A stretch of DNA of 64,000 bases. Origin: the human T2T-CHM13v2.0 reference genome, Homo sapiens. Each line of letters opens with the position of its first letter. The stretch's first letter is position 1. The position numbers were made by a program, and so were the translations under genes. Below, in pieces: positions 17,225 to 18,299 of this stretch. A model generated the notes under the pieces. The model saw nothing but the letters and a program-made list of their open reading frames with translations, searched no databases and had not been told where the DNA came from. Location: NCBI RefSeq assembly GCF_009914755.1, contig NC_060947.1. One strand, written 5' to 3'.

Positions 17225-17231
17225 TATGATG

Positions 17232-18299
17232 TTAGCTGGTGATTTTGCTCATTAGTTGATGCAGTTTCTTCCTAGTCTCGATGGTCTTTACATTTTGGCA
17301 TGATTTTGCAGTGGCTGGTACCGGTTGTTCCATGTTTAGCGCTTCCTTCAGGAGCTCTTTTAGGGCAGGCCTGGTGGTGACAAAATCTCTCAACATTTGC
17401 TTGTCTATAAAGTATTTTATTTCTCCTTCACTTATGAAGCTTAGTTTGGCTGGATATGAAATTCTGGGTTGAAAATTCTTTTCTTTAAGAATGTTGAATA
17501 TTGGCCCCCACTCTCTTCTGGCTTGTAGGGTTTCTGCCGAGAGATCCGCTGTTAGTCTGATGGGCTTTCCTTTGAGGGTAACCCGACCTTTCTCTCTGGC
17601 TGCCCTTAACATTTTTTCCTTCATTTCAACTTTGGTGAATCTGACAATTATGTGTCTTGGAGTTGCTCTTCTCGAGGAGTATCTTTGTGGCGTTCTCTGT
17701 ATTTCCTGAATCTGAACGTTGGCCTGCCTTGCTAGATTGGGGAAGTTCTCCTGGATAATATCCTGCAGAGTGTTTTCCAACTTGGTTCCATTCTCCACAT
17801 CACTTTCAGGTACACCAATCAGACGTAGATTTGGTCTTTTCACATAGTCCCATATTTCTTGGAGGCTTTGCTCATTTCTTTTTATTCTTTTTTCTCTAAA
17901 CTTCCCTTCTCGCTTCATTTCATTCATTTCATCTTCCATTGCTGATACCCTTTCTTCCAGTTGATCGCATCGGCTCCTGAGGCTTCTGCATTCTTCACGT
18001 AGTTCTCGAGCCTTGGTTTTCAGCTCCATCAGCTCCTTTAAGCACTTCTCTGTATTGGTTATTCTAGTTATACATTCTTCTAAATTTTTTTCAAAGTTTT
18101 CAACTTCTTTGCCTTTGGTTTGAATGTCCTCCCGTAGCTCAGAGTAATTTGATCGTCTGAAGCCTTCTTCTCTCAGCTCGTCAAAATCATTCTCCATCCA
18201 GCTTTGTTCTGTTGCTGGTGAGGAACTGCGTTCCTTTGGAGGAGGAGAGGCGCTCTGCATTTTAGAGTTTCCAGTTTTTCTGTTCTGTTTTTTCCCCAT
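17232..18299 (-). CDS. L1 ORF1p, frameshifted after E324, 355 aa with a novel 31-aa tail
   Basis: MGKKQNRK start; coiled coil, REKG, ARR and YPAKLS intact; ATGGAACAAC instead of consensus ATGGAAAGGAACAAC. Confidence 0.93.

What the first reader, a model, noticed from the sequence alone, without database searches (positions are those of the whole stretch)
17225..17335. ORF1 5-bp deletion swaps the C-terminal tail and cuts the ORF1-ORF2 spacer from 63 to 7 nt
Seen: the L1 strand reads ATGGAACAAC where the consensus has ATGGAAAGGAACAAC, a deletion between GGAA direct repeats. ORF1p keeps residues 1-324, loses [14 protein letters not shown] and gains [31 protein letters not shown]. It now stops at 17232-17234, only 7 nt before the ORF2 ATG (17222-17224). 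Established: ORF2 is translated by unconventional termination/reinitiation after ORF1, and the folded ORF1p C-terminal domain ends at about this position. Inference: pipelines would score ORF1 as broken, yet the protein may still work, and the short spacer could alter the ORF1p:ORF2p ratio. This would be a natural experiment on L1 translational coupling.
Basis: partly seen in the sequence, partly recalled or inferred. Interest (0 to 1): 0.72.

Follow-up and report, generated by a model that had tools for sequence, protein, structure and literature searches.

The report
Frameshifted ORF1 tail in reference L1HS
A young human L1 retrotransposon in an intron of SLC25A43 has a real 5-base slippage deletion that swaps the floppy end of its first protein and moves that protein's stop codon next to the second gene, but published experiments suggest this matters little and the copy looks silent, so the finding is accurate but fairly ordinary.

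Summary
On the minus strand, ORF1 (17232-18299) is 355 aa and leaves the solved ORF1p sequence at residue 325. Its stop lies 7 nt before an open 1275-aa ORF2 (13397-17224). All 29 closest L1 copies in the assembly carry the 5 missing bases, a 14-aa tail and a 63-nt spacer.

The element is the known reference L1HS at hg38 chrX:119435468-119441493. It was detected in 12 of 12 cell lines, scored 'not_expressed' in all 12, and has no assay or progeny record.

The same deletion occurs in 5 other L1 copies, against 7,857 undeleted junctions. One is a pre-Ta copy on contig C13; four are old copies. The two young carriers share no other private variant and differ at the Ta/pre-Ta diagnostic. I read this as recurrent slippage between GGAA repeats, with no sign that a deleted element propagated.

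Published work reports that residues 324-338 of ORF1p are disordered and not functionally required, that C-terminal tags are tolerated, and that the ORF1 3' end and the spacer are dispensable for ORF2 translation. The proposed natural experiment is therefore largely done already.

It is also confounded here: this copy has a private G656S change at a conserved reverse-transcriptase position. Interest is low.

The parts
13176..19202 (-). Full-length L1HS element (5' end at 19202; 19-nt A-run at 13176-13194), antisense in an intron of SLC25A43. It is the reference copy hg38 chrX:119435468-119441493.
   Evidence: Homology with the C13 copy stops at the L1 ends. The 5' end and A-run were located. 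The hg38 identity comes from the PMC10879037 supplement.
18300..19202 (-). 5'UTR. It lacks the extra G near L1 position 70 that the C13 copy keeps.
   Evidence: column 94 (window 19133): the window and 28 of 29 panel copies have a gap; C13 and 1 panel copy have G.
17232..18299 (-). ORF1, 355 codons plus a TAA stop at 17232-17234. Residues 1-324 are canonical except for a private T14M (codon 18258-18260).
17327..17333 (-). Site of the 5-base deletion between GGAA direct repeats; the placement is ambiguous within this stretch.
   Evidence: 29 of 29 panel copies have five more bases here.
17235..17327 (-). New 31-aa tail (residues 325-355), read from the old tail codons and the former spacer in a shifted frame. 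It has 6 K/R and 1 D/E, pI about 10.2.
17225..17231 (-). Residual 7-nt ORF1-ORF2 spacer.
13397..17224 (-). ORF2, 1275 codons, open. N14, E43, D145, D205, H230, D600, FADD 700-703 and the CCHC motif at 1130 are all present.
15257..15259 (-). ORF2p codon 656: Ser here, Gly in 29 of 29 panel copies and in the solved ORF2p chains. The position is conserved in the reverse transcriptase.
13283..13285 (-). 3'UTR trinucleotide ACA, the L1HS-Ta diagnostic.
   Evidence: Sequence and difference list. The definition is from PMC7026601.

Best explanation
This is a real 5-base deletion, private to this copy, in a reference L1HS-Ta element. It most likely arose by strand slippage between two GGAA repeats, either in the genome or during the reverse transcription that made the copy. 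It shifts ORF1 at codon 325, just past the last ordered residue of the C-terminal domain. The disordered 14-aa tail is replaced by a 31-aa basic tail read from the former spacer, and translation stops 7 nt before the ORF2 ATG. Inferred from published experiments: the altered ORF1p probably keeps most of its function, and ORF2 is probably still translated by termination and reinitiation at about the usual low rate. Shown here: the same deletion arose more than once among L1 copies, no deleted lineage can be shown to have propagated, and this copy carries other private changes. Taken from a published table: it is transcriptionally silent in the 12 cell lines examined.
For: The deletion is real and derived: 29 of 29 closest copies have the 5 bases. 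Genome-wide there are 7,857 undeleted junctions (35-mer, up to 3 mismatches) against 6 deleted ones (30-mer, up to 3 mismatches). The reversed-pattern controls gave 0. Evidence for recurrence rather than inheritance: the only other young carrier (C13) is a separate insertion with its own 15-bp target-site duplication. Over the 5' 4 kb it shares with the window copy no non-majority variant except the deletion and one common polymorphism held by 11 of 29 panel copies; it has 28 private differences against the window's 9. It keeps a 5'UTR G that the window and 28 of 29 panel copies lack. It reads ACG (pre-Ta) where the window reads ACA (Ta) (definitions). In one search, 35 undeleted copies score closer to the window than C13 does. 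In one search, the window copy is not among the 40 scored matches to C13's 3' end. Four further carriers are 6-9% diverged from the young copies and 5.2-9.0% from each other. Tail dispensability: E324-M338 'not functionally required'; tags tolerated. Spacer dispensability. ORF2 is open, aligns end to end with the solved ORF2p chains, and has its catalytic motifs.
Against: No experiment has tested this particular tail. A 31-aa basic peptide with a cysteine, joined directly to E324, could destabilise or mislocalise ORF1p; some C-terminal additions do cost activity (3xFlag left 30% of wild type). The per-mutant values of the Adney trialanine scan for residues 324-338 are in supplements I could not open. 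I read Alisch 2006 only through secondary citations; the paper is not held. Two carriers among 701 exact-junction (young) copies is more than an age-proportional mutation model predicts: P(2 or more) is about 0.003. Given the ascertained window copy, P(at least one more) is about 0.075, under assumed mean divergences of 5% and 1%. Shared descent therefore cannot be fully excluded on counts alone. The hg38-based label 'intactORF1' disagrees with the CHM13 ORF2 state and is unexplained.
Confidence: 0.62

Rival explanations
1. The frameshift inactivates ORF1p because the new tail misfolds, aggregates or blocks RNA binding. The copy would then be an ORF2-only L1 that cannot move itself in cis and could at most supply ORF2p in trans, for example to Alu.
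For: [quoted passage not shown] Some C-terminal additions reduce activity (3xFlag to 30% of wild type; a longer GFP linker to 23%). No progeny and no assay are recorded for this locus. None of the 6 carriers can be shown to have offspring.
Against: The change starts after the last ordered residue. Residues 324-338 are reported to be disordered, variable or absent in orthologs, partly removable and not functionally required. A Flag tag had no effect, a 48-aa tag cost 2% in ORFeus-Hs, and GFP cost about 25%. Lack of offspring is the norm for L1 copies, so it says little.
Confidence: 0.25
2. One reading: cutting the spacer from 63 to 7 nt materially changes ORF2p output and the ORF1p to ORF2p ratio, because termination now happens next to the restart site.
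For: In calicivirus and influenza B termination-reinitiation, restart frequency falls as the stop-start distance grows. A review notes that the 63-nt L1 spacer would require scanning or looping (PMC5972666, passages).
Against: For human L1, the ORF1 3' end and the spacer are reported to be dispensable for ORF2p translation, which is also independent of the AUG (citing Alisch 2006). No UGGGA (TURBS core) lies in the 150 nt upstream of the new stop, so the viral mechanism has no obvious handle here.
Confidence: 0.12
3. The deletion was inherited: a deleted source element retrotransposed and produced both the window copy and the C13 copy. That would be natural proof that the 355-aa ORF1p works, or was complemented in trans.
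For: Two exact-junction carriers among 701 young copies (0.29%) against 4 of 7,162 older ones (0.056%). Apart from private changes, both young carriers match the panel majority over the 5' 4 kb. A source that differed from the family only by the deletion would leave exactly this pattern.
Against: Fisher's test on those counts gives p = 0.094. The two differ at the Ta/pre-Ta trinucleotide and at the 5'UTR G. None of C13's 28 private variants is in the window copy, so C13 is not its parent. At least 35 undeleted copies are closer to the window than C13. The main Ta lineage is undeleted (699 exact undeleted junctions).
Confidence: 0.07
4. The deletion is an assembly or polishing error in this assembly.
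For: None was found; reads could not be examined.
Against: The site is not a homopolymer. The same junction occurs at five other loci. The hg38 annotation of this locus is 6,025 bp against 6,027 bp measured here, and other full-length L1HS rows shown from that table mostly read 6,025-6,034 bp.
Confidence: 0.02

Closest known systems
[quoted passage not shown]
   Same: A full-length young L1 with an open 1275-codon ORF2 and an ORF1 that departs from the canonical frame.
   Different: ORF1 is not truncated. It stays open and is 17 codons longer, with all folded domains intact. The one hg38-based table I saw files this locus as 'intactORF1', not as ORF2-intact.
Engineered L1 reporters with C-terminally tagged or trimmed ORF1p and altered ORF1 3' end or spacer (T7, Flag, multi-tag, GFP, HaloTag; Alisch 2006 constructs as cited)
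   Same: Foreign residues are appended after the C-terminal domain and the distance to ORF2 is changed. Those constructs mostly keep retrotransposition and ORF2 translation.
   Different: Here the native 14-aa tail is replaced rather than extended, the added peptide is a frameshift product, and the arrangement arose naturally. This exact tail has not been tested.
Termination-reinitiation with closely spaced stop and start (caliciviruses, influenza B segment 7, SART1; PMC5972666)
   Same: A long upstream ORF ends within a few nucleotides of the downstream start codon.
   Different: No TURBS core motif lies upstream. Human L1 ORF2 translation is reported to need neither the spacer nor the AUG. 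The stop and start do not overlap.
Other mammalian L1 inter-ORF arrangements (rat L1 spacer of 58-60 nt with two in-frame stops, PMC2241872; from recall only, shorter spacers or overlapping ORFs in some rodent L1s)
   Same: ORF1-ORF2 spacing varies among working L1 families.
   Different: This is a single-copy mutation, not a family-wide design.

Membership tests
L1HS-Ta (human-specific LINE-1, Ta subset) | ACA trinucleotide at the diagnostic 3'UTR site (ACG = pre-Ta, GAG = L1PA2 or older) | tested here: met
   The window reads ACA at 13283-13285 and C13 reads ACG. The definition is from PMC7026601 passages.
L1HS-Ta (human-specific LINE-1, Ta subset) | About 6 kb long with a 5'UTR, ORF1, ORF2, 3'UTR and poly(A), and near-identity to other L1HS copies | tested here: met
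   6,027 bp. 99.2-99.6% identity to 29 panel copies over about 4 kb. Annotated as L1HS in hg38.
L1HS-Ta (human-specific LINE-1, Ta subset) | Flanking target-site duplication | tested here: inconclusive
   Only an 8-nt repeat was found. It lies 16 nt upstream of the 5' end, leaving 8 unexplained nucleotides at the 5' junction.
   The window and 28 of 29 panel copies lack a G near L1 position 70 that C13 and 1 panel copy keep. The other Ta-1 sites were not tested.
Retrotransposition-competent L1 (L1Base FLI-L1 in the functional sense) | Intact ORF1 encoding a functional ORF1p | tested here: inconclusive
   The ORF is open (355 aa) and residues 1-324 are canonical apart from T14M. The tail is replaced. 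The literature suggests tolerance, but this tail is untested.
Retrotransposition-competent L1 (L1Base FLI-L1 in the functional sense) | Intact ORF2 with conserved endonuclease, reverse-transcriptase and Cys-rich residues | tested here: inconclusive
   The ORF is open and the listed catalytic residues are present. However, the private G656S falls where 4 of 5 aligned bacterial reverse transcriptases, 29 of 29 panel L1s and the solved ORF2p chains have Gly.
Retrotransposition-competent L1 (L1Base FLI-L1 in the functional sense) | Activity in a cell-culture assay, or documented progeny | not testable with these tools
   The published table shows '.' for both RTn_assay and progeny_count.
TURBS-type termination-reinitiation | UGGGA core (18S rRNA complement) within about 40-90 nt upstream of the stop-restart site | tested here: not met
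   No TGGGA in the 150 nt upstream of the new stop.

The most novel reading that the evidence does not exclude
Slippage at the GGAA repeat repeatedly creates a 355-aa ORF1p isoform with a basic 31-aa tail and a 7-nt stop-start gap, and this isoform is fully retrotransposition-competent. L1 alleles of this type would then be a small hidden class of potentially active elements that ORF-length or frame-based catalogues mis-sort, and that antibodies raised to the native C-terminal peptide (318-338, listed) would miss.
Probability: 0.2. Interest if true: 0.4.

Novelty: new member of a known kind. Interest (0 to 1): 0.2.

Why it matters
The value is mainly for bookkeeping. Lists of potentially active human L1s depend on how 'intact ORF1' is defined, and this copy shows that a frameshift at the very end of ORF1 can leave every folded domain untouched. 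The published label for the locus also disagrees with what the CHM13 sequence shows. [quoted passage not shown] The one new fact is that the same deletion recurs at six loci, a small example of microhomology-driven parallel mutation in a repeat family.

Tried and rejected
1. Segmental duplication as the reason for the second junction: rejected. Window-C13 homology ends at the L1 ends, and C13 has its own target-site duplication.

2. The 5 bases being a recent gain rather than a loss: rejected. There are 7,158 non-exact and 699 exact undeleted junctions, so the longer form is the old and general state.

3. A mutational 'hotspot' above background: not claimed. From recalled genome-wide indel rates (no call), a handful of identical 5-base microhomology deletions among about 7,000 old copies is roughly what background predicts.

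4. Sisterhood of the old carriers: L036 scores no better against L035 than four undeleted copies do (3086 bits against 3104, 3076, 3064 and 3060), with 40 scored of 9,956 candidates. L037 is absent from the 40 scored of 11,825 candidates for L034. Distances alone cannot exclude a common deleted source in a star-like family, and only 40 candidates were scored each time.

The Ta versus pre-Ta call there rests on the trinucleotide and on rankings.

6. Structure prediction of RRM-CTD plus the new tail (single sequence): mean pLDDT 55.6, and the known CTD fold itself scored below 50, so it is uninformative.

7. Papers not held: Alisch 2006, the journal version of Adney 2019 and Richardson 2015. The Adney preprint main text gives no values for residues 324-338; its supplements are closed.

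8. The ORF2p structure paper has no mention of G656 or motif B.

10. In-print searches: SLC25A43 plus L1HS returned 0 papers; three tail peptides returned 0 papers; 'intact ORF2' plus ORF1, frameshift and L1HS returned 0 papers. The L1Farm preprint mentions no frameshift.

Full report
OBSERVATION

The minus strand of the window reads ...AAACATGGAACAACCGG... at 17323-17337. Four ORFs of at least 80 aa overlap 13000-19400 under the standard code. Two of them are the L1 genes:
- ORF1 at 17232-18299, 355 aa.
- ORF2 at 13397-17224, 1275 aa.

The ORF1 stop is at 17232-17234 and the ORF2 ATG at 17222-17224, so 7 nt separate them.

Against solved structures, ORF1p matches chains 2ykp and 2yko over residues 106-325 and differs from them at residue 325, Q against R (7 distinct PDB sequences matched).

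The window's own assembly could be searched. A 1.3-kb query around the site returned 40 scored matches out of 3,747 candidates. The best of them are 1,306 bases long where the window has 1,301.

I aligned the window, the 29 best other loci and the C13 copy over about 4 kb (31 rows, 4,038 columns; two panel rows are partial). All 29 panel copies have five more bases at this point. Stored locus L005 reads ...[19 protein letters not shown] with 63 nt to the ORF2 ATG.

The deleted unit cannot be placed to the base, because GGAA flanks it on both sides.

WHAT THE ELEMENT IS

It is a full-length L1 of 6,027 bp, running from its 5' end (19202) to the end of a 19-nt A-run (13176). It lies antisense in an intron of SLC25A43, according to the hub's gene table.

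It is 99.2-99.6% identical to the panel. Over the 5' 4 kb it differs from the panel majority at only 9 positions.

Its 3'UTR diagnostic trinucleotide is ACA. By PMC7026601 (passages), ACA marks L1Hs-Ta, ACG marks pre-Ta and GAG marks L1PA2 or older. It also lacks a G near position 70 of the 5'UTR, as do 28 of 29 panel copies. From recall, this is the Ta-1d mark.

The target-site duplication is unclear. I found only an 8-nt repeat, with 8 unexplained nucleotides at the 5' junction.

A published locus table (PMC10879037, supplementary files 2 and 6) lists the copy as chrX:119435468-119441493, minus strand, L1HS, reference, 6,025 bp, nearest gene SLC25A43. According to that table:
- It was detected in 12 of 12 cell lines.
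- It is scored 'not_expressed' in all 12.
- Its promoter CpG methylation is low in K562 (0.018), 2102Ep (0.076) and HEK293T (0.25).
- It has no retrotransposition-assay entry and no progeny entry.

Its 'L1base' label is 'intactORF1', which the legend defines as intact in ORF1 only. That disagrees with CHM13, where ORF2 is open over all 1,275 codons. I cannot resolve this without the hg38 sequence. The same table labels a 1,854-bp fragment 'intactORF2', so the labels are not wholly reliable.

IS THE DELETION INHERITED OR RECURRENT?

The exact 30-base junction occurs twice in the assembly: in the window and at C13:75840652-75840681 (reversed-pattern control 0). With up to 3 mismatches it occurs six times. 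The undeleted 35-base junction occurs 699 times exactly and 7,857 times with up to 3 mismatches.

The C13 copy is a separate insertion:
- One alignment of 6,039 bp at 98.97% identity ends at the L1 ends.
- It has its own 15-bp target-site duplication.
- Both of its ORFs are broken elsewhere.

Several results argue against common descent of the window and C13 copies:
- Over the 5' 4 kb they share no non-majority variant except the deletion and one polymorphism that 11 of 29 panel copies also carry.
- C13 has 28 private differences, and none of them is in the window copy.
- C13 keeps the 5'UTR G and reads ACG.
- In one search, 35 undeleted copies score higher against the window than C13 does.
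- In one search (40 scored of 4,003 candidates), the window copy is not among the matches to C13's 3' 2.3 kb.

The other four carriers are 6.0-8.8% diverged from the young copies and 5.2-9.0% from each other. They are not evidently each other's closest relatives, although only 40 candidates were scored in each search.

In all six carriers the shifted frame runs 31 codons to the same TAA, 7 nt before the ORF2 ATG.

Statistics on the counts:
- Young against old carriers: 2 of 701 against 4 of 7,162, Fisher p = 0.094.
- With a constant per-copy probability, a second young carrier is unremarkable (P = 0.41).
- With an age-proportional model and assumed mean divergences of 5% and 1%, P = 0.075.

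I conclude that the deletion arose several times by slippage, and that nothing shows a deleted L1 ever produced offspring. Inheritance for the young pair keeps about 7%.

WHAT THE CHANGE PROBABLY DOES

The frameshift begins one residue after E324.

On the ORF1p tail:
- They add that it is partially removable (citing Alisch 2006) and extendable with tags, and conclude that these residues are not functionally required.
- Dai et al. 2014 (PMC4091050, passages) report that a C-terminal Flag tag had no effect.
- In the same paper a 48-aa tag cost 2% in ORFeus-Hs and more than 30% in L1RP, 3xFlag left 30% of wild type, and GFP cost about 25%.
- Active T7- and HaloTag-tagged constructs are described.

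On the spacer:
- Dai et al. [quoted passage not shown]
- ORF2p translation needs completion of an upstream ORF, but neither the AUG nor a functional ORF1p.
- A translation review (PMC5972666) notes that viral termination-reinitiation weakens with distance. I found no UGGGA core in the 150 nt upstream of the new stop.

The new tail has 6 K/R and 1 D/E, with pI about 10.2. The native tail has 3 K/R and none acidic.

My reading is inference rather than a demonstrated result. ORF1p most likely keeps much of its activity (about 60-70%), and ORF2 translation is most likely little changed (about 85%).

Two gaps remain. The Adney trialanine values for these residues are in closed supplements. The primary Alisch paper is not held.

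CONFOUNDERS

ORF2p aligns end to end with the solved ORF2p chains. N14, E43, D145, D205, H230, D600, FADD 700-703 and the CCHC motif at 1130 are all present.

It differs from those chains at five residues:
- T5N: 28 of 29 panel copies share N.
- V446A: private, 0 of 29 panel copies.
- K485M: 10 of 29 panel copies share M.
- G656S: private, 0 of 29 panel copies.
- Y1086N: C13 and the solved chains have Y; I hold no panel for that region.

To test whether position 656 is conserved, I searched the plasmid collection with the reverse-transcriptase core (291 records matched, 12 listed). I fetched 5 of the 12 listed and aligned them. Four of the 5 have Gly at the aligned position, in a G-x-P/R-Q-G stretch.

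ORF1p also has a private T14M (0 of 28 panel copies).

So even if the tail swap is harmless, this copy is not a clean test bed.

COMPARISON WITH WHAT IS KNOWN, AND VERDICT

The copy fits the known kind 'young full-length L1 with intact ORF2 and altered ORF1' (L1Base2 ORF2-L1 class, 107 human members). It resembles engineered ORF1p tail and spacer variants that have already been tested.

I found no printed description of this frameshift or its tail: SLC25A43 with L1HS returned 0 papers, the three tail peptides returned 0 papers, and intact ORF2 with ORF1, frameshift and L1HS returned 0 papers.

It is a correctly read but ordinary mutation. The one modest new point is that the same deletion recurs at six loci.

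Noticed in passing
L003 (G000:C13:75835000-75844500), L1 on the minus strand: A second young full-length L1 (ACG, so pre-Ta) carries the identical 5-base deletion. It has a clean 15-bp target-site duplication, and both of its ORFs are broken elsewhere.
   Followed up: yes
L034, L035, L036, L037 (G000 C1:78150804, C1:156392802, C7:23965943, C13:77753621): Four old L1PA-type copies (6-9% diverged) show the same deletion. In all six carriers the shifted frame stays open for 31 codons to the same TAA, 7 nt before the ORF2 ATG.
   Followed up: partly
window 15257-15259 (-): ORF2p G656S is private to this copy. It falls where 29 of 29 panel L1s, the solved ORF2p chains and 4 of 5 aligned bacterial reverse transcriptases have Gly.
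   Followed up: partly
window 15887-15889, 13967-13969 and 18258-18260 (-): Further amino-acid changes: ORF2p V446A (0 of 29 panel copies), ORF2p Y1086N (differs from the solved chains and from C13; no panel was held there) and ORF1p T14M (0 of 28).
   Followed up: partly
window 19203-19226 and 13150-13176: There is no clear target-site duplication for so young an element. Only an 8-nt repeat was found, with 8 extra nucleotides between it and the L1 5' end, possibly untemplated bases at the 5' junction.
   Followed up: partly
window 13176-19202 (hg38 chrX:119435468-119441493): The published table labels this locus 'intactORF1' (ORF1 only), yet ORF2 is fully open in CHM13. Either the alleles differ or the label is wrong. 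The promoter is nearly unmethylated in K562 and 2102Ep, yet the locus is scored not expressed.
   Followed up: partly
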